Positions 1-8,642 of a stretch of DNA of 32,000 nucleotides are shown here, piece after piece (the stretch's first letter is position 1; every line of letters starts with the position of its first letter). The position numbers and the translations under genes were made by a program. The DNA comes from Archaeoglobus fulgidus DSM 4304. Lineage in GTDB: Archaea; Halobacteriota; Archaeoglobi; Archaeoglobales; Archaeoglobaceae. Location of the stretch: positions 1,530,001-1,562,000 of the forward strand of contig NC_000917.1 of NCBI RefSeq assembly GCF_000008665.1, in the 5' to 3' direction. Below the pieces are notes generated by a model. That model saw only the letters and a program-made list of their open reading frames with translations. It searched no databases and had not been told where the DNA came from.

Positions 1-2115
1 AGCTCTGGCAGAAATAACGAGAACGGCTCTATCAATCGTATCCCTGTCGTAGCTCAGCTCAAAATCGAAAAATCTGAAGGCTTCATCCAATTTTTTCCTT
101 AACTCCTCCTTAAGCTCCTCTAATTCGTACGCTGCCCCCCTGATGTCCTCCTCCTCATACATCTCGAAGGCCTTCTTCAGAAACTTGAAGACTCCAACGT
201 AATCAACAACCAGCCCAGCTCCCTTGAGGTTCTCCCCATCCTTAACAAAAGGCCTGTTGGTTCTCGCTATCGCCTGCAGCAATCTGTGCTCCTTTAATGG
301 CTTGTCGAGGTAGAGGGTTTGCAGGATTGGAGCATCAAAGCCAGTGAGGAGCATATCCGTTACAATGAGTATTTTGGGATTCTCGTACTTTTTGAACCTC
401 GTTATAATTTCCTCGTGAATCTCTTTTAGCTCGCTTTTGCCGTATTTTTTCCTCAACTTTTCCAGATAGTCCAGCAGTTCCTTTGAATCGTTCTGCTGGA
501 AGGTCATCACGATTTCGGTTTCGTTTTCATTCAGGAATTTGTCCAAAGCCTGCTTGTAGTAAAGGCACGCGTTTCTGCTGACGGCAACAACCATCGCCTT
601 GAATGGTTTAACGAATTGGATGTAGTGGCTCGCTATATCCCTCGCTATCCTCTCAATCCTCTTCTTGTCCTCCAGAATAACTTTAACCTTGTTCAGCCTC
701 CTCTTCAGGTCCTGCTCCACCTTCTCTCTATACTCCTCAGGAATCTCCTCAAGCTTTGAGGAGAGGAAGATTTCCAGATTTTCCCTATCAAGGTGGACCT
801 CATCGAGCCTCGACTGGAAGGCAATCTTAACGGTATAGCCATCATCTATGGAGTCGAGGATGAAGTAGCGGTCGAGGTATGGCTCGTCTGGATAGCCAAA
901 GGCAAGGTAGGTATCTCTCCCCTTCTTTGCTATCGGCGTTCCGGTGAAGGCGAAGAAGCTTGCATTCTTCAGTATGCTCCTCATGCTTGCCGCAAGTTCC
1001 CCATATTGCGTGCGATGCCCCTCATCGATCAAGCAAACTACATCTCTCCTCTTCGCTATGCTCCAGTGCTGCTTCTCCATCTGCTCCCTCAGCTTCGCAA
1101 GCTCCTCCTCCCTGAACTTGTGTATGAGGGTTATGAAGAATCCCCGCTTGCCATCAGCATGGCTTAGAACCTCCTTGAGATGGTCAATACTCTCTATCAA
1201 CTCATAGCTTATTTTGAGGTTTTTCAGCTCATCTGAAAGCTGCTTCTGCAGCTCAACTCTATCAACTACGAAGAAGATTGAGGGATTTCCGATGAGGTCC
1301 CTTATCTTGAGGGCTGAGAAAATCATGGTCAGCGTTTTGCCCGTTCCCTGCCAGTGCCAGATTAGGCCTTTGTTCCTCTCCTCAAAGCCCTTAGCCCAGC
1401 CAACTGCCCTCTCAACGATGGAGTTAACTGCTCTGTACTGCATGTATCTCGGCAGAACCTTTGTTATCTCCCCATCCTGCTCTCTGTAAATGGTGAAGTA
1501 GCGGATGAGGTCCAAGAAAATCTCAGGCTTCAGGATGTCGAACTGAGGTTTCCACTCGTAAACCGGAACGCTCTCCTCCCACCTCACGATGGGAAAGTAA
1601 ACGAGCCTGTCAGCGAAGCTGAAACCAATCTGAACATACTTGAAAAGCTCTGGGGCTGATTGCTCATACCTCTTTATCTGAGCATAGCCTTCCTTCCAGC
1701 TTTTGGCCATCTTCTTGCACTCAATGATGGCGAGGGGGATGCCGTTAACAAAGAGGGTGATGTCCGGGATGATGTCGGCGAAGCTAACCTGCCTTGAGAA
1801 GACGAGGCTGTTGGCTTCAGGGTTTGCGTAATCTATCAGCTTTATGGTCTTAAGGATGCCTTCTGAATCCTTTATTGTTACTCCCTTCTTTATCGCATCC
1901 AGAATTTGCATTGAGCCCTCAACGTCAAAGGAGCGGGTTTCGAGGTAGTTCAAAACCTCCTTGATATCCTCATCATCCACATCGTTCAGCCTTTTTAATG
2001 CAGCCTTAAATTCGGTTAAGTCGAGAATGTCAGGGCTGAGTTTCCTCTCCTCCCAGCCGAAGGATTTGAGAATCTCCGAAAGGTAGTCTTCGGATTGCTC
2101 TTTCTCTTTCTTCAC
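1..2115 (-). CDS. hsdR: Type I restriction enzyme R subunit (HsdR); C-terminal end cut by the window edge
   Basis: The minus-strand frame is open from GTG at 2115 to position 1 (705 codons). It is absent from the ORF track because the window truncates it. My translation contains a PD-(D/E)xK nuclease motif (FADIIPDITLFVNGIPLAIIECKK, about 1715-1790). It also has helicase motif I (WHWQGTGKTLTM, about 1320-1385), motif II (CLIDEGHRTQYG, about 1000-1035), motif III (FAFTGTPI) and motif VI (QAIARTNRPF, about 255-290). Confidence 0.9.
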   Translation of the reverse strand, partial: MKKEKEQSEDYLSEILKSFGWEERKLSPDILDLTEFKAALKRLNDVDDEDIKEVLNYLETRSFDVEGSMQILDAIKKGVTIKDSEGILKTIKLIDYANPEANSLVFSRQVSFADIIPDITLFVNGIPLAIIECKKMAKSWKEGYAQIKRYEQSAPELFKYVQIGFSFADRLVYFPIVRWEESVPVYEWKPQFDILKPEIFLDLIRYFTIYREQDGEITKVLPRYMQYRAVNSIVERAVGWAKGFEERNKGLIWHWQGTGKTLTMIFSALKIRDLIGNPSIFFVVDRVELQKQLSDELKNLKISYELIESIDHLKEVLSHADGKRGFFITLIHKFREEELAKLREQMEKQHWSIAKRRDVVCLIDEGHRTQYGELAASMRSILKNASFFAFTGTPIAKKGRDTYLAFGYPDEPYLDRYFILDSIDDGYTVKIAFQSRLDEVHLDRENLEIFLSSKLEEIPEEYREKVEQDLKRRLNKVKVILEDKKRIERIARDIASHYIQFVKPFKAMVVAVSRNACLYYKQALDKFLNENETEIVMTFQQNDSKELLDYLEKLRKKYGKSELKEIHEEIITRFKKYENPKILIVTDMLLTGFDAPILQTLYLDKPLKEHRLLQAIARTNRPFVKDGENLKGAGLVVDYVGVFKFLKKAFEMYEEEDIRGAAYELEELKEELRKKLDEAFRFFDFELSYDRDTIDRAVLVISARA

Positions 2116-2236
2116 CGAAATTAGTTTAATTTGGAGGGATAAAATTGTTTCGAAAGGTCAGAGAATTTTGCTGATAGCTTTGTAAATGTCCCACACCTCT
2201 ATTATACCAGCCTTCTTGATGAGGTCAAAGAGTAAG

Positions 2237-3151
2237 TTATATTTCATATACCAATAAATTCGCTACTTCATCCAATAACTTAACGATTTCATTAAAATAC
2301 TGAACTATTCCTAAATTTTCATCATATTTTTCAGGTGGCAATGTTTTGTTTGGATATCTGGCGAATGTGGCATGAGGATAGGTTATTATAGATAGCATAT
2401 AAAGCACAAGAAAGGTCGAACTCAGTTTTAATAACGTCTCCAGATTATTTAGGACTCTATCAACACTATCAATTAATTTTTCCAGAATAAATTTCTCGGA
2501 TGGATCCGAACTCTTTATTTCGCTTGCTTCATTCTTTAATTTGGAGAGTAACCCCAATATCTGGTTTTTAATTTCTTTATTCTCCAAGGCAATTTTTATT
2601 TTAATTGTGGCATTTATAATTCCTTTTATCTGATTTGAATCCATTTCTGCGATCTGTTTTCTACTCATATTTACAATTCTCACCAATTTGCGTATATCTT
2701 CATCTGAAATTTTTAGAAATTGTGTATCCAATCCGCCAATTTTTTGAATACTTTTTAAAAACAATTCTAATGATCTTTTGTACCTATCGAGAAGTCTAAT
2801 AAACGCTTTTGGCGAATCGTGCCCAACATAACCTTTCATCTCTTTTTTGCTCAATCCAAAAAACGCTAAAACATAAGCTTTAACATATTTCTCCACAGCT
2901 TGTTGTAAGTGGTACACAGCTAAAGAGTAAATTTTGGATTGATACAAAATCTTAACGGATTCAAAATCCTGTAGTGCCATTTTAACGAAGCTTTTTGCTT
3001 CAGATGATCTTCTCTCTTGCTCTTTCTTATCAATTTCATAAAATTTTGAAAATTCTGAAACAGCTTTAAGAAATTCTATTGAGTCCTTTTCGGATGATAA
3101 AATGGAAAATAAGCGTTCTATAATTTCCTCCGTGTTTCCTTTTTTATTCAT
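2237..3151 (-). CDS. HEPN-like domain protein with a roughly 140-aa helical insert, embedded between hsdS and hsdR
   Basis: 304-aa ORF. The N-terminal part ([37 protein letters not shown]...GHDSPKAF) resembles the HEPN helix 1-3 signature (..A.fH.QQAaEKalKA...tHdL). The C-terminus ([19 protein letters not shown]) resembles the HEPN closing ..aRYP....y.. element. Its start overlaps the hsdS stop by 8 nt. GC is far lower than the flanks: 16 of 60 in 2281-2340 and 15 of 60 in 2581-2640, against 26 of 60 in hsdR 1981-2040 and 32 of 60 in ilvB 10981-11040. Confidence 0.55.
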
Positions 3152-4418
3152 TTGCTTTCACCCTAACCCTCCTCCTTCCAGTCAGCAAATCGTTCATCAA
3201 ACCCTTCTTAATCCTCTCAAGCTTTTCCTTTCGTTTCCTTTCGAGTTCGAGCTTTTTGTCCACTGTTGAAAGAATTTCAGCGATTTTTTGCTGTTCTGGG
3301 AGAGGTGGGAGTGGGATTTTAAACTTTTTCAAGTTTGTTGCATTGATATTTGCTTGATGAACTGCAACAGTTGCCAATTGCTTAAGCCTACTCTGTGAAA
3401 ATATAAGGTAGAACGTTAGGAAATGAGGATGCAAAATTTCATGCTTAGGCCTCAATCTAATCAGATAAGAAGCAAAAACATAATAACCATCCAATAAAAA
3501 TATACCTGTCCTCCCAACAAGTTCTAAACTATTTGTGCGGTTGAATAAAACATCTCCTTTTTCTAATTTGAAATTCTTGAACGTTTCTTCATCAAGATCT
3601 GCATACTTGGCAATATCTGTAACAACATACCCATTTACAATTTCATCCATTCTAATAACTGGATATTTACCCTTATCCTTCAGCGGAACTGATAACCCAT
3701 ACTGGCACAATTCCAAAACATCCCCAAGCCTAACAACCTCCCACTCCTTCGGAATCCTCCCGATTTCGGTATCTTTAAACTCCTTGTGCCCTATCCCTTT
3801 GGTGAGAAGCTCCTGCATCAGGCCCTTCTTCAGCCTTTCAGTCTTCGCTATGGCTTCGTCAACCTTTTCTATGGCTTTATCAACCGTGCTGAGAATTTCG
3901 GCGATTTTTTGCTGTTCTGGGAGCGGAAGTAGTGGAATTAGTAATTCCTCAAGAGACTTTTTCGGCAATTCTTTAAAGGTGCTTCCACCACTTAATTGTT
4001 CGAGTTTCCGTTTAATCAATAGCAAGTAATAGCAATAAAACTCTGTGTTAATTTCTGAAGATTTTGGAATTAAACCTTTGCAGCCTTGGTTAAATGTAGT
4101 GTCCTCATCTACGATAGCAACATAACCGACTGGCGCACGGGTTGAGACAATAATCGAGCCTTTAGGCAATAATGTAAGGTTGTAATCTCTTAATGCTTTC
4201 TCAGTTATTTTTCTTTCTGAAACGGAAATATGTGTTCTCCCATTTAGTTTACTTAAATCAGTTGGAGTTAGCCAATTAATTGTTCCGTTTTCCCAATATT
4301 CTTCTTTTTTTGTAGATGGTGTCGTTCCCGTTTCAACATTGAAAATGTCCCCAAGCCTAACAACCTCCCAATCCTCAGGAATCCTCCCGATTGGTGTTTC
4401 CTTGTATCTGGATGCTAT
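3144..4418 (-). CDS. hsdS: Type I R-M specificity subunit HsdS with two target-recognition domains; the homology-supported 5' end lacks a canonical start codon
   Basis: The track ORF 3144-4169 starts at an internal TTG in the middle of TRD1. The same frame stays open upstream to 4463 and encodes [55 protein letters not shown], a typical HsdS N-terminus. It parallels the TRD2 start ([20 protein letters not shown]). The conserved coiled-coil spacer LP(L/P)[16 protein letters not shown] occurs twice. No ATG, GTG or TTG occurs between 4463 and 4170. An in-frame ATA at 4416-4418 lies 7 nt downstream of GGAGG. Confidence 0.85.
3272..3302. repeat. 31-nt direct repeat inside hsdS (partner copy at 3893-3923, 30 of 31 identical)
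   Basis: gaatttcagcgattttttgctgttctgggag at 3272-3302 against gaatttcggcgattttttgctgttctgggag at 3893-3923. Both encode PEQQKIAEI of the central and C-terminal conserved HsdS regions. Confidence 0.9.
3720..3764. repeat. 45-nt direct repeat inside hsdS (partner copy at 4348-4392, 42 of 45 identical)
   Basis: tccccaagcctaacaacctccca...ggaatcctcccgatt is present at both sites. Both encode the IGRIP(K/E)(E/D)WEVVRLGD segment that opens each TRD. Confidence 0.9.
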
Positions 4419-4420
4419 GT

Positions 4421-4864
4421 TTACCCCTCCCCTTTCAGCTTTCCAATCGCCTCTAAGGCTTTTTCAAGTTCATCGAGCAAACAGTATGCCTCAATCCCAT
4501 ATTTCTTGCCATTCCTTACCATTAATCTATCTGATGATATCAGGATGGAGTTCGTTAATCTGGCGGTGGCTATGAAATATGAGTCCGCAGCCCTTGGATG
4601 AACTTTTTCAGCGACATTTAAAGCCTCATCAAACACGAAATCCTCTGAAAGAATCTCGAAATCATATGTAAGTTCCTCAATATCCTTTCTCGAAATCTCA
4701 ATCCCAAGCCTTTTAGCTACTGAAATCAGCTCAATAACGAAGATTTTCGGAACAAATACAGTCAATCCCTCAATGGAATTCAAAAACTTCCTCGCTTTTT
4801 CATTTCTATTCTCATCCCTATCAAAAAGATAATCGACAAAAATCGATGTATCAATAACGATCAT
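4421..4864 (-). CDS. vapC: PIN-domain toxin (VapC family)
   Basis: 147 aa. [13 protein letters not shown] supplies the first acidic residue. Further conserved acidic positions lie in [19 protein letters not shown] and ILISSD, which is typical PIN spacing. Its start overlaps the upstream antitoxin gene by 14 nt. Confidence 0.8.
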
Positions 4865-5066
4865 CCCTGATCTCCTCTAATTCTCGATGAGCTCCCTCAA
4901 CTCTCTCAATTCTCTTCTCAAGCTCCCTGAGTTTTGCGTAAAATCTTCCTGTCACCTTTTTTGTTTCCCTTATCTCCACCTTAACAATCTCCCCCTCTCT
5001 AAGGCTAACTTTCCTGAGGGGCTTAAGAACTCCCTTCTGGTAAACAGCCTCGATAATCTCTCCCAT
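4851..5066 (-). CDS. DUF104/AF2212-like antitoxin partner of the PIN toxin (VapB-like)
   Basis: [32 protein letters not shown] matches the family signature (..IEAvYenGVlKPL.kvdL.EG..V.v.i). I prefer the ATG at 5066 over the track GTG at 5075 because that GTG lies inside an AGGTG Shine-Dalgarno just upstream of the ATG. Confidence 0.7.
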
Positions 5067-5100
5067 TTGAAACACCTTTTCTTCGTATTCTAATATCTTA

Positions 5101-5187
5101 AAACCAATAAAAACTTAACTTTTCCTCACTCAAAAACTCCTTAATCGATTTTGCGACTTTTGGGTGAACTATAATTTCATAACTCAT
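5101..5187 (-). pseudogene. Truncated RelE/ParE-like toxin stub (28 codons)
   Basis: Its ATG overlaps the stop of the upstream relB-like ORF in an ATGA junction (5184-5187). My translation is [29 protein letters not shown]. This follows the usual RelE/ParE N-terminal pattern (M.Y.I/V.I/V..ka.K.l..l) but stops after 28 codons, where about 85-95 would be expected. It is below the ORF-track size cutoff. Confidence 0.4.
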
Positions 5188-5405
5188 AGGCCGAGTTCAG
5201 CTTTAAGCTTCTCCCATGGAATTCCGTTCTTTTTCGTCTCTTCAACAAGCCTGTCAAGCTCCTTGGCCTCTTCCTCGCTGATTTCCTCTTCCTGTATCAT
5301 TCCAGCCTCAAGAAGTTCGATTTTACTGCTTAACTTCTTCAACTCCTCTCTTATGATTTTCAACTCATCATAAATTGCCTTTAAAAGCTCAGTATCACCA
5401 CTCAT
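5184..5405 (-). CDS. RelB-like / addiction-module antitoxin-like small protein
   Basis: 73 aa. An N-terminal coiled coil (LLKAIYDELKIIREELKKLSSKIELLEA) is followed by an acidic ISEEEAKELDRLVEE segment and a C-terminal IPWEKLKAELGL. This layout recalls archaeal RelB and 'putative addiction module component' antitoxins. It is translationally coupled to the relE-like stub. Confidence 0.45.
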   Translation of the reverse strand: MSGDTELLKAIYDELKIIREELKKLSSKIELLEAGMIQEEEISEEEAKELDRLVEETKKNGIPWEKLKAELGL

Positions 5406-5465
5406 TGAATTTTAATAAGCACGAGAAAATTTAAAGGTTTGCTGGAGTGGTCAGAAGCAGATTTA

Positions 5466-5648
5466 TCAAACTAAATCCCTTTTTAGCTCCATCCACGACT
5501 TATCTGTCTTAATCACTCCCTTTAGCTCATTCATCAGTTCAAAGAACCTGTCCCTCTCATTGAAGAATTTGGCAGTTTCCTCAACTGCTTTTCTAAACGC
5601 CTTTTCGGCGTTATCTGGAACGGATACTTTAATCGTAACCTCCCCCAT
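5466..5648 (-). CDS. Small hypothetical protein (60 aa), possibly an orphan antitoxin-like protein
   Basis: The ORF reads MGEVTIKVSVPDNAEKAFRKAVEETAKFFNERDRFFELMNELKGVIKTDKSWMELKRDLV. It has a short N-terminal beta-strand-like segment followed by helices, and a C-terminal SWMELKRDL similar to the neighbour's PWEKLKAEL. No family is recognised with confidence. Confidence 0.35.
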   Translation of the reverse strand: MGEVTIKVSVPDNAEKAFRKAVEETAKFFNERDRFFELMNELKGVIKTDKSWMELKRDLV

Positions 5649-5691
5649 GTATTTGGGTTGGTTTGAGATGTTAAATAACTTACTCCTATTT

Positions 5692-5728
5692 TCATAGCTC
5701 CCAATCTTCAGGCAGATTGATCGAGCAT
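5692..5728 (-). pseudogene. Relic of an hsdS 5' end immediately downstream of the hsdM stop
   Basis: An ATG at 5728 lies 1 nt after the hsdM TAA (5730-5732) and reads MLDQSA*. One frame over, the same stretch reads SINLPEDWEL* (stop 5692-5694). LPEDWE is the HsdS N-terminal signature also seen at 4365-4382 (IPEDWEV). Confidence 0.4.
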
Positions 5729-5729
5729 A

Positions 5730-7255
5730 TTATCCTCGCCCAAACCCCAACTCAGCAAGATACTCCTCTATCCTCCTCTCCACCTCATCAATCTCCCTCT
5801 CAATCCCCCTGAGCTCCTCCCACTCCTTGGCAACATCAATCTCCTCAACTTCCTCCTGCGGGAAGACATAAAGCGTAACGTTCAGGTTGTAGTCGTTCTT
5901 TCTCACTTCCTCGACATCAACAACCCTGCAGAATCCATCTCCATCCTTGAACTCCCTGTAAGCGCTGACTATCTTCTCAATATGCTTCTCTCCAAGCCTG
6001 TTCAGCTTCCTAACCTCAGGATGCTTCTCGTATTCGTTGCTTGCGTTAATAAACAGAATCTTTCCCTTCCTGCTCTCTGGCTTCTGCTTGTTGAAGATTA
6101 TAATCGCTCCCGGAGCTCCCGTGTTGTAGAAGAGCTTTTCAGGGAGCAGAATTACGCACTCGATTAAATCATCCTCAACCACAGCTTTCCTTATCGCCCC
6201 CTCCTTTCCTCCTCTGAAAAGGCACCCGTTATCGATTACAACACCAACCTTCTTTTTTGCCGATGCAAGCATGTGCTGAATCCACGCCCAGTCGGCTGAT
6301 TGCTTTGGAGTAAAGCCGTACCTGAACCTCTCATCGTAGAACTCAGCCTTTTTCAGCTCCTCCTCGCCATACCCATCCTGATTCCATGGTGGATTTGCAA
6401 TAACTATATCGAATTTTCTGAACGTCTCTCCTTCCTTAAACCTCGGATTTTTCAGCGTGTCGCCAACAACGAGGTTTATGTCCTTTATTCCGTGAACGAT
6501 GGCGTTCATCTTGGCTATGGCGTAGGTTGTTGGATTAACCTCCTGCCCGTAAAGGAATAGCTTCCTCACCTCCTCCTCGCCGTATTTCTCCTTAACGTAA
6601 TCGTAGGCCCTTATCAGCATCCTCGCATAGCCAGCAGCGGGATCATAAACGCTATCCATCGGCTTTGGATCAACAATTCTGACGATGAGCTCAACAACCT
6701 CCGAAGGGGTGAAAACCTCCCCCTCTTTGGCCTTCTGTGGGGCGAAGTAGCCGATAAGCCACTCGTAAGCGTCACCAAGAATGCTATCACTCGCCCTTCC
6801 CAGATTCAGTCCGCTGAAAAGCTCAAAAAGCTGGACGAGAATGTCGAAGTTGTCCCTTGCCTCGTGAACTCAAGAAAGTCCAGCCTGTCCACAACTCCTT
6901 GCAACTCAGGATTTTTCTCGGCGAGCAGCTTTAAAGCCTCAGAAAGCCTTACAGGCAGCTCATTAACGTTCTTCCTCAGCTCCTCCCAAGTGTATTTTTC
7001 AGGATAGTCAAATTTGTGGAAGGATCTGTCCTTTGCGAGGATTTTTGCCTCCTCCTCATCAACTCCTTTCTCCATTAAGGTTTTGAGAGCCTCCCTGTAC
7101 TCTCGCTTCCACTCATCGCTCAGCTTTTTAAGGAAGAGAAGGACGAGAATGTACTTGTAATCAACCCTCGTCCTAATCAGATCAGCAGCCTGCTTGCAGG
7201 CCCTTATTAGCTCGTCTTTCGTTGTTTCAATTTCGACGTAATCGGCAAGGGTCAT
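5730..7255 (-). pseudogene. hsdM: Type I R-M N6-adenine methyltransferase subunit HsdM, interrupted by a 1-nt frameshift
   Basis: Two track ORFs belong together. ORF 6806-7255 is the HsdM_N-like part (DLIRTRVDYKYILVLLFLKKLSDEW). ORF 5730-6659 is the catalytic part (YDPAAGYARML, IVIANPPWNQ). The stretch 6660-6853 in the downstream frame encodes DNFDILVQLFELFSGLNLGRASDSILGDAYEWLIGYFAPQKAKEGEVFTPSEVVELIVRIVDPKP, which is continuous HsdM sequence. The total span of 1526 nt is not divisible by 3. Confidence 0.85.
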
Positions 7256-7495
7256 TGTTTGCGGTGGGTTTAGGCAAATATTATCTTTTCCTTTTGCGAA
7301 ATTAAAGCTAAAAAATGTGAACTCTGCTTAAAACAGTTGAAGGGAAACAATATTTGACAAGATTTTGAACGATATGCCCGTAGCTGCCAAAGGTGAACGT
7401 TCCAATGCACTTTTTTGAGTTGGAATCTGAACACTGCTCCTCCACACAATTGAAATTATTCATAGCCAGCAGAATTTAGCATTTCAAAACAAAAA

Positions 7496-7568
7496 TGGGC
7501 TCGGCCGGATTCGAACCGGCGATCTCCGCCTTGTAAGGGCGACGTCATAACCGCTAGACCACGAGCCC
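7496..7568 (-). tRNA. tRNA-Val (anticodon UAC), no encoded CCA
   Basis: The reverse complement is GGGCTCGTGGTCTAGCGGTTATGACGTCGCCCTTACAAGGCGGAGATCGCCGGTTCGAATCCGGCCGAGCCCA. It folds by hand into a cloverleaf. The 7-bp acceptor stem pairs GGGCTCG with CGAGCCC. The anticodon stem pairs TCGCC with GGCGG, the loop is CT-TAC-AA, and the T arm is GCCGG-TTCGAAT-CCGGC. Confidence 0.92.
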
Positions 7569-7591
7569 TTGGAGTGGTTCTGACGAATTTG

Positions 7592-7599
7592 TTATTAAG
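7592..7599 (-). promoter_or_regulatory. Candidate archaeal TATA box for tRNA-Val
   Basis: The minus strand reads CTTAATAA, ending 24 nt upstream of the tRNA 5' end. That places it at about -31 to -24, the canonical spacing for archaeal TATA elements. Confidence 0.4.
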
Positions 7600-7706
7600 C
7601 TTAACGCCTACCTCTGCAGTATCGGCAATCCAATACATTTCGCAATCAGCGAAATTTAAATCTTATTTCTTCCTTCTTACCGGAAGTTTTATAAGGGAAA
7701 GAGTTT

Positions 7707-8642
7707 ATGCTTGATATGCCAATCGACCCTGTTTACTACCAGCTTGCTGAGTATTTCGACAGTCTGCCGAAGTTCGACCAGTTTTCCTCGGCCAGAGAGT
7801 ACAGGGAGGCGATAAATCGAATATACGAGGAGAGAAACCGGCAGCTGAGCCAGCATGAGAGGGTTGAAAGAGTTGAGGACAGGACGATTAAGGGGAGGAA
7901 CGGAGACATCAGAGTCAGAGTTTACCAGCAGAAGCCCGATTCCCCGGTTCTGGTTTACTATCACGGTGGTGGATTTGTGATTTGCAGCATCGAGTCGCAC
8001 GACGCCTTATGCAGGAGAATTGCGAGACTTTCAAACTCTACCGTAGTCTCCGTGGATTACAGGCTCGCTCCTGAGCACAAGTTTCCCGCCGCAGTTTATG
8101 ATTGCTACGATGCGACCAAGTGGGTTGCTGAGAACGCCGAGGAGCTGAGGATTGACCCGTCAAAAATCTTCGTTGGGGGGGACAGTGCGGGAGGGAATCT
8201 TGCCGCGGCGGTTTCAATAATGGCGAGAGACAGCGGAGAAGATTTCATAAAGCATCAAATTCTAATTTACCCCGTTGTGAACTTTGTAGCCCCCACACCA
8301 TCGCTTCTGGAGTTTGGAGAGGGGCTGTGGATTCTCGACCAGAAGATAATGAGTTGGTTCTCGGAGCAGTACTTCTCCAGAGAGGAAGATAAGTTCAACC
8401 CCCTCGCCTCCGTAATCTTTGCGGACCTTGAGAACCTACCTCCTGCGCTGATCATAACCGCCGAATACGACCCGCTGAGAGATGAAGGAGAAGTTTTCGG
8501 GCAGATGCTGAGAAGAGCCGGTGTTGAGGCGAGCATCGTCAGATACAGAGGCGTGCTTCACGGATTCATCAATTACTATCCCGTGCTGAAGGCTGCGAGG
8601 GATGCGATAAACCAGATTGCCGCTCTTCTTGTGTTCGACTAG
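7707..8642 (+). CDS. estA: Carboxylesterase of the hormone-sensitive-lipase (HSL) family; matches AFEST of A. fulgidus as I recall it
   Basis: 311 aa. It has the HGGG oxyanion motif (VLVYYHGGGFVICS), the nucleophile elbow GDSAGG, and the C-terminal D...H of the catalytic triad (EYDPLRDEG, VLHGF). The N-terminus MLDMPIDPVYYQLAEYF is the one I remember for AFEST. Confidence 0.93.
   Translation: MLDMPIDPVYYQLAEYFDSLPKFDQFSSAREYREAINRIYEERNRQLSQHERVERVEDRTIKGRNGDIRVRVYQQKPDSPVLVYYHGGGFVICSIESHDALCRRIARLSNSTVVSVDYRLAPEHKFPAAVYDCYDATKWVAENAEELRIDPSKIFVGGDSAGGNLAAAVSIMARDSGEDFIKHQILIYPVVNFVAPTPSLLEFGEGLWILDQKIMSWFSEQYFSREEDKFNPLASVIFADLENLPPALIITAEYDPLRDEGEVFGQMLRRAGVEASIVRYRGVLHGFINYYPVLKAARDAINQIAALLVFD

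What the first reader, a model, noticed from the sequence alone, without database searches (positions are those of the whole stretch)
1..7599. Composite defence island beside tRNA-Val: a type I R-M operon split open by TA-type cassettes and a HEPN-like gene
All genes lie on the minus strand, in this order: hsdM (7255-5730), a 37-nt hsdS-start relic, a 60-aa ORF, a relB-like gene, a relE stub, a DUF104 antitoxin, a PIN toxin, hsdS (4418-3144), a HEPN-like ORF (3151-2237) and hsdR (2115 to the window edge). The junctions are tight. The vapC stop (4421-4423) is 2 nt from the presumptive hsdS initiation codon. The hsdS stop overlaps the HEPN start by 8 nt. The antitoxin/toxin pairs overlap by 4-14 nt. 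The block could therefore be a single transcription unit. Ordinary type I loci keep hsdM and hsdS adjacent or overlapping. Here both modification-side genes look damaged, while hsdR, vapBC and the HEPN-like ORF are intact. This suggests the locus has shifted from classical restriction towards toxin/Abi-type immunity, or is caught in decay. It sits about 240 bp from a tRNA gene, a classic integration hotspot, although no integrase is visible in the window.
Basis: partly seen in the sequence, partly recalled or inferred. Interest (0 to 1): 0.75.

Follow-up and report, generated by a model that had tools for sequence, protein, structure and literature searches.

The report
Restriction operon carrying embedded toxin genes
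This is an Archaeoglobus fulgidus type I restriction-modification operon with toxin-antitoxin cassettes and a HEPN gene embedded in it, a known kind of layout, and in this strain the methylase gene is broken by a one-base deletion.

Summary
All genes are on the minus strand: hsdM (one frameshift), an hsdS-start relic, three TA-type cassettes (two reduced to orphan antitoxins), a complete hsdS that begins at ATA, a HEPN gene overlapping hsdS by 8 nt, and hsdR.

Comparison changes the reading. Ten A. fulgidus assemblies share this gene order. Four of them have an intact 508-aa hsdM. Three independent datasets share the window's one-base deletion, so it is real but strain-specific.

The HEPN gene is not a passenger. 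In 23 related loci its start lies within -20 to +8 nt of the hsdS stop, usually followed by hsdR and a YgjP-like gene, and one natural HsdS-HEPN fusion exists. In those loci the hsdM-hsdS gap also holds defence cargo (TIR, Fic, RhuM, Shedu-like, AbiJ-like).

So this is one lineage's version of a type I R-M operon with embedded defences, as in PrrC/EcoprrI and the DarTG2 island. Different strains carry different lesions, which fits decay. Nothing supports a shift to Abi-type immunity or integration at the tRNA. It is a new member of a known kind, of moderate interest.

The parts
1..2115 (-). hsdR, the first 705 codons (GTG start at 2115). The gene runs off the window. It is 957 aa in sister assemblies and is followed there by a YgjP-like (PF01863) gene.
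   Evidence: Pfam HSDR_N, SWI2_SNF2, ResIII and T1R_D3-like. PADLOC REase_I, E 7e-91. Full length and the YgjP-like neighbour were seen in L001.
2116..2236 (-). 121-nt spacer between the HEPN gene and hsdR, with A/T-rich TATA-like stretches. It may hold a separate hsdR promoter.
   Evidence: Read directly from the sequence. Not tested.
2237..3151 (-). HEPN-T-like gene of 304 aa with about 30% GC. Its start overlaps the hsdS stop by 8 nt. Residues invariant across the family are E87, K88, K91, H111, P114, H260, R265 and Y266.
   Evidence: Pfam PF05168, E 8.6e-9. GC profile. Family alignments. 1896 cluster representatives at E<=1e-3. Conserved position after hsdS. HsdS-HEPN fusion P0088.
3144..4418 (-). 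hsdS, 424 codons with two target-recognition domains. The first codon is ATA, 2 nt after the vapC stop, with GGAGG 7 nt upstream. The first canonical start is TTG at 4169.
   Evidence: Pfam Methylase_S, E 7e-87.. In L006 the same 424-codon gene starts with TTG.
4421..4864 (-). vapC-type PIN toxin of 147 aa. The acidic residues D5, E45, D94 and D112 are present.
   Evidence: Pfam PIN, E 4e-21. Residues read from the translation. The gene is frameshifted in L001 and L004.
4851..5075 (-). AF2212-like (DUF104) antitoxin. The likely start is ATG at 5066 (71 aa). It overlaps vapC by 14 nt.
   Evidence: Pfam PF01954, E 8e-18. Gene calls in L001-L009.
5098..5187 (-). Stub of a relE/parE-family toxin, 29 codons. 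Only the first 17 or so match real toxins. Its start overlaps the antitoxin stop by 4 nt.
   Evidence: Matches the N-termini of the toxins in L098 and L101.
5184..5405 (-). 73-aa orphan antitoxin (AF_1713) of a RelE/ParE-type pair.
   Evidence: The name comes from a source record. Homologues are paired with an 88-aa ParE_toxin protein in L101-L103.
5466..5700 (-). Orphan VapB-type antitoxin (60 aa, 5648-5466) together with its roughly 50-nt leader. It is a paralogue of the vapB-PIN139 cassette that precedes hsdS in L006.
   Evidence: 88.5% identity over 226 nt to L006 8087-8312. Its homologue in L105 is followed by a 139-aa PIN gene.
5692..5728 (-). 37-nt relic of an hsdS 5' end. The ATG lies 1 nt after the hsdM stop. 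It reads MLDQSA* in frame and LPEDWEL* in a shifted frame.
   Evidence: The motif occurs twice in the window against 0.01 expected by chance.
5730..7255 (-). hsdM, with a one-base deletion near 6858 that splits it into 149-aa and 309-aa ORFs. The intact allele is 508 aa and reads ...TRPRDNFDIL.... NPPW is present. Motif I is the unusual DPAAGYARML.
7496..7568 (-). tRNA-Val(TAC). Its 3' end faces the locus, 240 nt from the hsdM start. No att-like repeat was found.
   Evidence: ARAGORN, Rfam, repeat checks.

Best explanation
The region is a type I restriction-modification operon of A. fulgidus built to a recurrent plan: hsdM, then a variable cargo slot, then hsdS, HEPN, hsdR and a YgjP-like gene.

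Shown:
- The HEPN gene belongs to a family of about 300-aa HEPN-T-like proteins. Where an hsdS gene lies next to it, its start falls on the hsdS stop codon.
- The hsdM-hsdS gap is a landing site where small TA and defence cassettes are gained, swapped and eroded. Here it holds one complete AF2212-like/PIN (vapBC) pair, two orphan antitoxins (a VapB type, and a RelB type with a toxin stub), and the 5' relic of an earlier hsdS.
- The low-GC middle (30-41% GC) sits between hsdM and hsdR, which have host-like GC (47-51%). This fits replacement of the original hsdS by an imported block.
- In this strain a one-base deletion truncates HsdM.

Inferred:
- Loss of HsdM abolishes both methylation and restriction, because type I enzymes need the M2S core.
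- hsdS, with ATA behind a good Shine-Dalgarno sequence, is at best weakly translated. It may reinitiate from the vapC stop 2 nt upstream.
- The HEPN protein is made in step with HsdS and docks on the R-M complex as a second-line RNase. It would be held inactive by the complex and released when the complex is disabled, as PrrC is in EcoprrI. It would use an alternative active site (H111 and/or H260 with R265, plus the E87-x3-K91 motif).
- The vapBC pair acts as an addiction or abortive module that stabilises the block.

Confidence is about 0.85 for the architecture and the strain-specific inactivation, and about 0.35 for the PrrC-like mechanism.
For: - Domain assignments.
- The same gene order occurs in 10 A. 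fulgidus assemblies. hsdM is intact in L001, L005, L006 and L007 and split in L002, L003 and L008.
- Close HEPN homologues (40-57% identity) are all adjacent to type I R-M genes where the contig allows it to be seen. The hsdS-HEPN-hsdR-YgjP order holds in L011 (Archaeoglobus sp. JdFR-41, same 8-nt overlap). It also holds in L015 and L016 (Methanoperedens), with further genes between HEPN and hsdR. L014 (Methanosarcinales) shows HEPN-hsdR-YgjP.
- In 23 loci the nearest HEPN start codon lies -20 to +8 nt from the hsdS stop. Nine have a 4-nt overlap.
- A natural HsdS-HEPN fusion exists, P0088.
- Invariant residues include E87, K88, K91, H111, H260 and R265 across 22 sequences sharing as little as 26% identity with the window protein. 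This matches the 'alternative His' HEPN-T/AbiV type described in PMC3710099.
- Cargo in the hsdM-hsdS gap of related loci: TIR_2, Fic, RhuM, SduA_C, Bro-N, AbiJ_NTD4, HTH-M78, Schlafen and YhcG.
- Cassette swapping is seen directly in L006.
- GC profile.
- Published precedents: PrrC/EcoprrI and at least 16 R-M-linked HEPN clades, DarTG2 embedded between hsdS and hsdR with a downstream M48 peptidase, embedding in type I RM in general, and PIN TA systems coupled to type I RM.
Against: - No canonical Rx4-6H motif and no ABC ATPase domain, so this is not a PrrC homologue, and RNase activity is unproven.
- In the wider family, only 9 of 28 loci with at least 1.5 kb on both sides carry R-M genes. 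The others sit beside housekeeping genes, so R-M linkage is a property of a subset of the family.
- hsdS lacks a canonical start in 9 of the 10 sampled assemblies. The R-M system may therefore be inactive across most of the species, leaving the HEPN protein without a partner.
- There are no expression, methylome or phenotype data.
Confidence: 0.6

Rival explanations
1. One reading: with hsdM and hsdS damaged, the locus has been repurposed. The intact HEPN, vapBC and hsdR genes now provide toxin/Abi-type immunity independent of modification.
For: - The hsdM frameshift is authentic.
- hsdS has no canonical start.
- The HEPN, PIN and hsdR reading frames are open in this strain.
Against: - The same architecture exists with intact hsdM in four other assemblies.
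- In DSM 8774 the PIN gene is the broken one.
- hsdR is itself broken in L002 and L007.
- HsdR alone has no known activity without M2S1 (established knowledge of type I enzymes).
- The HEPN gene is translationally coupled to the poorly initiated hsdS.
- The lesions look scattered rather than directed.
Confidence: 0.1
2. Pure decay: the whole block is a non-functional remnant in A. fulgidus. The hsdS start was lost first, and the other genes then drifted. The HEPN gene and the cassettes have no current role.
For: - ATA replaces a start codon in 9 of 10 assemblies.
- Independent lesions occur in hsdM (two), vapC and hsdR (two) across strains.
- Two of the three TA cassettes are already reduced to orphan antitoxins.
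- HsdM motif I is unusual.
Against: - L005 has no lesion other than the ATA start. L006 has a TTG start and intact hsdM.
- The 3.4-kb middle differs by at most one substitution, plus one 3-nt in-frame deletion in L007, from strains whose hsdR differs by about 1.4-2%. This does not look like free drift.
- A good Shine-Dalgarno sequence sits 7 nt before ATA.
- Some lesions come from metagenome assemblies and could be assembly errors.
Confidence: 0.25
3. The HEPN protein is a non-catalytic accessory subunit of the R-M complex, such as a scaffold, a regulator of HsdS or a nucleotide sensor, and not a nuclease effector.
For: - There is no Rx4-6H motif.
- HEPN domains that have lost the Rx4-6H motif are treated as potential substrate-binding domains rather than nucleases in PMC3710099.
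- Coupling to hsdS and the fusion to it fit a structural partner equally well.
Against: - Two invariant His residues, Arg265 and the Ex3K motif are kept across sequences sharing as little as 26% identity with the window protein.
- PMC3710099 proposes exactly this alternative-His arrangement as an active site for AF0298-like and AbiV-like HEPN proteins.
Confidence: 0.2
4. The block is a genomic island integrated site-specifically at tRNA-Val.
For: - The tRNA 3' end faces the locus at 240 nt.
- The middle of the locus has low GC.
- The related locus in Archaeoglobus sp. JdFR-41 lies in a different neighbourhood, next to DUF87/TraG-like genes, so the module does move.
Against: - No integrase lies in the window or in 10 kb of L001. 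There is only an IS-type rve transposase beyond a further gene.
- No tRNA-derived repeat of 13 nt or more was found.
- hsdM, next to the tRNA, has host-like GC.
Confidence: 0.07

Closest known systems
EcoprrI-PrrC (prr locus of E. coli: hsdM-hsdS-prrC-hsdR)
   Same: A HEPN-superfamily gene sits between hsdS and hsdR in the same orientation. The proposed logic is the same: a latent RNase guarded by the R-M complex (PMC3710099; 10.1101/2024.01.29.577857).
   Different: The protein here has no ABC ATPase domain and no Rx4-6H motif. It belongs to the HEPN-T (PF05168) branch and carries a helical insertion of roughly 130 residues. The host is an archaeon. No activity has been shown.
RRDM island of EPEC (RptR-HsdM-HsdS-DarTG2-HsdR-M48 peptidase)
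   Same: A TA system is embedded in a type I R-M operon, and a metallopeptidase-like gene follows hsdR. The published work notes the hsdS-hsdR site as a possible recombination hotspot (PMC12255303).
   Different: Here the TA cassettes lie between hsdM and hsdS. The toxin types differ (PIN and RelE-type, not DarT). No RptR-like first gene was seen.
R-M-linked HEPN clades and HEPN-T of the AF0298/AbiV type (Anantharaman et al. 2013)
   Same: Both match PF05168. The R of the motif is kept, the H is absent from the Rx4-6H position, and a conserved alternative His lies upstream. [quoted passage not shown]
   Different: This roughly 300-aa family, with its long insertion, its strict coupling to the hsdS stop and its HsdS fusion, is not among the families seen in the parts of that paper retrieved. 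Its supplementary lists were not checked.
Genes embedded in type I RM ('guilt by embedding', Payne et al. 2024 preprint) and PIN TA systems coupled to type I RM (Matelska et al. 2017)
   Same: Defence and TA genes are nested inside hsd operons in the same orientation.
   Different: Those are surveys. This locus adds an archaeal case with visible cassette turnover between strains.
rlo genes in the Campylobacter jejuni type I hsd loci (recalled from memory, Miller et al. 2005; not checked here)
   Same: Extra ORFs are interspersed between hsd genes and vary between strains.
   Different: The gene families differ and the host is bacterial. This comparison is a lead from memory only.

Membership tests
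Type I restriction-modification system | HsdM with HsdM_N and N6_Mtase domains and the NPPW motif | tested here: met
NPPW is present. Motif I is the atypical DPAAGYARML.
Type I restriction-modification system | Uninterrupted hsdM reading frame | tested here: not met
   A one-base deletion near 6858 splits the gene into 149-aa and 309-aa ORFs. The frame is intact in L001, L005, L006 and L007.
Type I restriction-modification system | HsdS with two target-recognition domains and conserved repeats | tested here: met
   Two Methylase_S stretches. Internal repeats D3 and D4.
Type I restriction-modification system | hsdS with a canonical initiation codon | tested here: not met
   ATA at 4418. The first ATG/GTG/TTG is at 4169. 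L006 has TTG.
Type I restriction-modification system | HsdR with an N-terminal nuclease domain and an SF2 helicase motor | tested here: met
   HSDR_N, SWI2_SNF2 and T1R_D3. The C-terminal 252 aa lie outside the window.
Type I restriction-modification system | Bipartite m6A methylation and restriction activity | not testable with these tools
   No methylome paper for A. fulgidus was found.
HEPN superfamily | Significant match to a HEPN profile | tested here: met
   PF05168, 36 bits against a cut-off of 22. The family profile hits the HEPN structures 1o3u (E 0.003) and 1wol (E 0.014).
HEPN superfamily | Rx4-6H catalytic motif | tested here: not met
   R265 is invariant, but no His lies 4-6 residues after it. 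H260 (Hx4R) and H111 are invariant instead.
HEPN superfamily | Ex3[KR] motif in helix 2 | tested here: met
   E87 and K91 are invariant.
HEPN superfamily | Four-helix up-down bundle fold | tested here: inconclusive
PrrC-type anticodon nuclease | N-terminal ABC ATPase domain fused to the HEPN domain | tested here: not met
   No ATPase domain was found in Pfam, NCBIfam or PADLOC.
PrrC-type anticodon nuclease | Gene embedded between hsdS and hsdR of a type I operon | tested here: met
PrrC-type anticodon nuclease | Silenced by the R-M complex and activated by an anti-restriction factor | not testable with these tools
   This needs biochemistry or genetics.
VapBC toxin-antitoxin | PIN toxin with four conserved acidic residues, preceded by an overlapping small antitoxin gene | tested here: met
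   PIN, E 4e-21. AF2212-like, E 8e-18. D5, E45, D94 and D112 were read. The overlap is 14 nt.
RelBE/ParDE toxin-antitoxin | Complete RelE/ParE toxin gene next to the antitoxin | tested here: not met
   Only 29 codons remain, of which about 17 are homologous. Full 88-aa ParE_toxin partners exist in L101-L103.
tRNA-integrated genomic island | Integrase gene and a direct repeat of the tRNA 3' end at the far boundary | tested here: not met
   No integrase was found. No tRNA-derived repeat of 13 nt or more was found in L001 or the window.

The most novel reading that the evidence does not exclude
The roughly 300-aa HEPN-T-like protein is a true fourth subunit of a lineage of type I R-M enzymes, found in archaea and in uncultured organisms. 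It would be made stoichiometrically with HsdS through stop-start coupling and bind HsdS. It would act as an RNase through a non-canonical active site (H111 and/or H260 with R265), released when the complex is disabled. That would make it a PrrC-like guard that arose independently, without an ATPase. The adjoining hsdM-hsdS gap would be a dedicated slot for cassette exchange.
Probability: 0.3. Interest if true: 0.6.

Novelty: new member of a known kind. Interest (0 to 1): 0.35.

Why it matters
Defence genes nested inside type I R-M operons are already known, so this does not change the picture. It does supply a clean archaeal example with three useful features:
- A HEPN family whose start is coupled to the hsdS stop in about 20 distinct loci, and which is fused to HsdS once. 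This gives a concrete candidate for testing whether PrrC-style guarding exists without an ATPase and with an alternative HEPN active site.
- Natural alleles of one species that differ in which component is broken (hsdM, vapC, hsdR, or the hsdS start). These are ready-made material for methylome and phenotype comparisons.
- A direct view of TA cassette turnover at one site.

Tried and rejected
- Family searches (Pfam, including E up to 10; NCBIfam; PADLOC; PHROGs) gave nothing usable for the 60-aa ORF, the 73-aa ORF or the stub. Their identity came only from the neighbours of their homologues.
- An hhalign comparison of the family against two canonical MNT-partner HEPN proteins was uninformative, because the second profile had only two sequences.
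- The search for an att-like repeat of the tRNA was negative.
- The paper on strain 7324 does not mention restriction, methylation or toxins. No A. fulgidus methylome paper was found.
- P0191 could not be located on any contig.
- I considered phase variation at the hsdM frameshift and rejected it. The site is CC to C, not a long repeat tract.
- I considered a VapC-HsdS fusion made by frameshifting and dropped it. It would require a ribosomal frameshift within the last 15 vapC codons, and nothing in the sequence suggests one.
- The sigma-70 promoter scan was not run because the organism is an archaeon.

Full report
**Source and coordinates.** The window matches Archaeoglobus fulgidus. Positions 1-7700 are 100% identical to contigs L003 and L008 and 99.96% identical to CP006577.1 (L001). 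One search identifies that genome as strain 7324 / DSM 8774. One ORF is named AF_1713 of DSM 4304 by a source record. All genes discussed lie on the minus strand.

| Element | Window coordinates | Evidence |
|---|---|---|
| hsdR | 2115 to the window edge | HSDR_N, SWI2_SNF2 and T1R_D3 domains |
| HEPN ORF | 3151-2237 | PF05168, above the curated cut-off |
| hsdS | 4418-3144 | two target-recognition domains |
| PIN | 4864-4421 | PF01850 |
| AF2212-like (DUF104) | 5075-4851 | PF01954 |
| hsdM | 7255-5730 | complete HsdM_N plus N6_Mtase profile once one frameshift is bridged |
| tRNA-Val(TAC) | 7496-7568 | ARAGORN and Rfam |

- The junction distances (2 nt, 8-nt overlap, 14-nt overlap, 4-nt overlap, 240 nt to the tRNA) are as stated.
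- The hsdS-start relic lies at 5728-5692. Its 15-nt core, CCTGARGATTGGGAG, occurs only there and in the true hsdS N-terminus. Chance expectation in the window is 0.01.

**The small ORFs.** No profile library recognises the 60-aa ORF, the 73-aa ORF or the 29-codon stub. Their neighbours elsewhere identify them.
- Homologues of the 73-aa ORF at 70% identity are followed, with a 4-nt overlap, by an 88-aa ParE_toxin protein.
- The stub's first 17 residues match the N-termini of those toxins.
- The 60-aa ORF is 88% identical to a protein followed by a 139-aa PIN toxin. It is an orphan VapB-type antitoxin.
- The gap between hsdM and hsdS thus holds three TA cassettes, of which only AF2212-like/PIN is complete. 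That PIN protein keeps the four acidic residues D5, E45, D94 and D112 (read).

**The damage.**
- The hsdM frameshift is a one-base deletion near 6858 relative to L001, L004, L005 and L007, where the protein is 508 aa.
- The same split hsdM appears in L002, L003 and L008, which come from separate datasets. It is therefore real, not a sequencing error, and it is strain-specific.
- hsdS is complete in content, but its first codon is ATA. Its frame is open for only 15 codons upstream, and the first canonical start is TTG at 4169.
- A GGAGG lies 7 nt before the ATA.
- Nine of the ten assemblies share ATA. L006 has a different cassette upstream and a TTG start that overlaps the PIN stop, giving the same 424 codons.
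- A single ATG-to-ATA change would account for the common allele. This is an inference, since no strain with ATG was seen.
- Other assemblies carry other lesions: +1 nt in vapC in L001 and L004, a second hsdM deletion in L004, an hsdR nonsense codon in L002, and an hsdR frameshift in L007. Some of these come from metagenome assemblies and could be errors.

**The HEPN gene is part of the operon plan.**
- The word-indexed search found only 13 relatives. A full profile search found 1896 cluster representatives at E<=1e-3 and 759 at E<=1e-10, mostly 280-320 aa long.
- The close relatives (40-57% identity) are all adjacent to type I R-M genes where the contig allows it to be seen.
  - In L011 (Archaeoglobus sp. 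JdFR-41) the order is hsdS-HEPN-hsdR-YgjP with the same 8-nt overlap.
  - L015 and the Methanoperedens MAG (L016) add further genes between HEPN and hsdR.
  - The Methanosarcinales MAG (L014) shows HEPN-hsdR-YgjP.
- In 23 loci with an HsdS ORF upstream, about 20 of them distinct, the nearest HEPN start lies -20 to +8 nt from the hsdS stop. Nine have a 4-nt overlap.
- One protein, P0088, is an HsdS-HEPN fusion.
- The link is not universal. Of 28 more distant loci with at least 1.5 kb on both sides, 9 carry R-M genes. Several others sit beside housekeeping genes.

**What kind of HEPN.**
- Across 22 sequences sharing as little as 26% identity with the window protein, D62, E87, K88, K91, H111, P114, H260, R265 and Y266 are invariant.
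- The Ex3K motif and the Arg are present, but the canonical Rx4-6H motif is not.
- Anantharaman et al. describe exactly this variant for HEPN-T proteins of the AF0298 type and for AbiV, in which an upstream His is proposed to complete the site. They also note that HEPN-T genes cluster with R-M operons.
- The AlphaFold model is confident and all-helical (pLDDT 81.7). Foldseek gave no significant PDB match. The fold therefore rests on the profile matches.

**The cargo slot.**
- In related HEPN-bearing loci, hsdM and hsdS are separated by 0.3-5.6 kb.
- That gap holds TIR_2, Fic, RhuM, a Shedu-like nuclease, Bro-N, AbiJ_NTD4, HTH-M78, Schlafen and YhcG genes.
- Within A. fulgidus, L006 replaces window positions 4745-4410 with a vapB-PIN139 cassette. 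The vapB and leader of that cassette are 88.5% identical to the orphan copy at 5700-5476. Both copies begin at CTATGAAAA.
- Together with the relic and the GC profile (hsdM and hsdR 47-51%, the middle 30-41%), this fits import of a cassette-hsdS-HEPN block into an older hsd operon, followed by serial cassette exchange. This history is inferred.

**tRNA and transcription.**
- There is no integrase near the locus, and there is no tRNA-derived repeat of 13 nt or more.
- TATA-like A/T boxes lie 20-35 nt before the starts of hsdM, the 60-aa ORF, the 73-aa ORF, the AF2212-like gene and hsdR (read).
- Several promoters are therefore plausible, with AF2212-like/PIN/hsdS/HEPN as the one tightly packed unit. 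This is unverified.

**Comparison with known systems.**
- PrrC in EcoprrI occupies the same position and supplies the working model. The protein here fails two of PrrC's defining features (the ATPase domain and the Rx4-6H motif), so it is an analogue and not a member.
- The EPEC RRDM island shows a TA system embedded in a type I operon with a downstream metallopeptidase.
- Embedding in type I RM has been surveyed.
- PIN TA systems linked to type I RM have been noted.

**Verdict.**
The damage is real and fits decay across strains.
- However, the composite layout is the normal plan of this operon lineage and predates the damage.
- Neither a shift to Abi-type immunity nor integration at the tRNA has support.
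- It is a new member of a known kind, with interest 0.35.

Noticed in passing
window 1-2115 compared with 2237-7700 (against L005 and L007): Differences between strains are concentrated in hsdR, at about 1.4-2% (30 of 37 differences in L005). The 3.4-kb middle (TA cassettes, hsdS, HEPN) has at most one substitution, plus one 3-nt in-frame deletion in L007. This suggests allelic exchange or diversifying selection at hsdR, or a recent sweep of the middle block.
   Followed up: partly
window about 6635-6664 (HsdM motif I): The AdoMet-binding motif reads DPAAGYARML. Relatives have DPACGSGGML or DPASASNGML. NPPW is intact. It is unclear whether this HsdM binds AdoMet normally, even in strains with an intact frame.
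   Followed up: partly
L001 8336-8731 (= window 4787): In DSM 8774 hsdM is intact, but the vapC PIN gene carries a +1 T insertion. This is the reverse of the window strain.
   Followed up: partly
L015 3801-6646 and 8941-10949: A related locus carries a TIR_2 gene and an unknown 504-aa gene between hsdM and hsdS. Between the family HEPN gene and hsdR it carries a second HEPN gene of the same family and an MNT/HEPN pair.
   Followed up: partly
L016 8555-8890 and 9836-10033; L018; L019; L051: Short hsdS fragments flank the HEPN gene on both sides in several loci. It looks as if the hsdS 3' end and the HEPN gene move as a unit, or as if hsdS alleles are shuffled around it.
   Followed up: no
P0065 (770 aa): A member of the HEPN family is fused to an N-terminal DUF2779/RNase_H-like domain. 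This is a second fusion partner besides HsdS.
   Followed up: no
L060 4433-9249: In one locus the HEPN gene lies between hsdM and hsdS rather than after hsdS.
   Followed up: no
L099/L100 5219-5392 (Geoglobus ahangari): The RelE/ParE-type partner of the 73-aa antitoxin family is also truncated or replaced there (57 aa, diverging after about 15 residues). Loss of this toxin while the antitoxin is kept has therefore happened more than once.
   Followed up: no
L001 15387-16286, outside the window: An IS-type transposase (rve domain) lies about 1.5 kb beyond hsdR-YgjP in L001 and L002 but not in L005. There, a response regulator and a MazE/PIN pair follow instead.
   Followed up: no
window 7707-8642 (+): The gene on the other side of the tRNA is a 311-aa alpha/beta hydrolase (Abhydrolase_3 family in sister assemblies). 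By recollection it is the A. fulgidus carboxylesterase AFEST. Beyond it lie housekeeping ilv genes, so the defence block ends at the tRNA.
   Followed up: no
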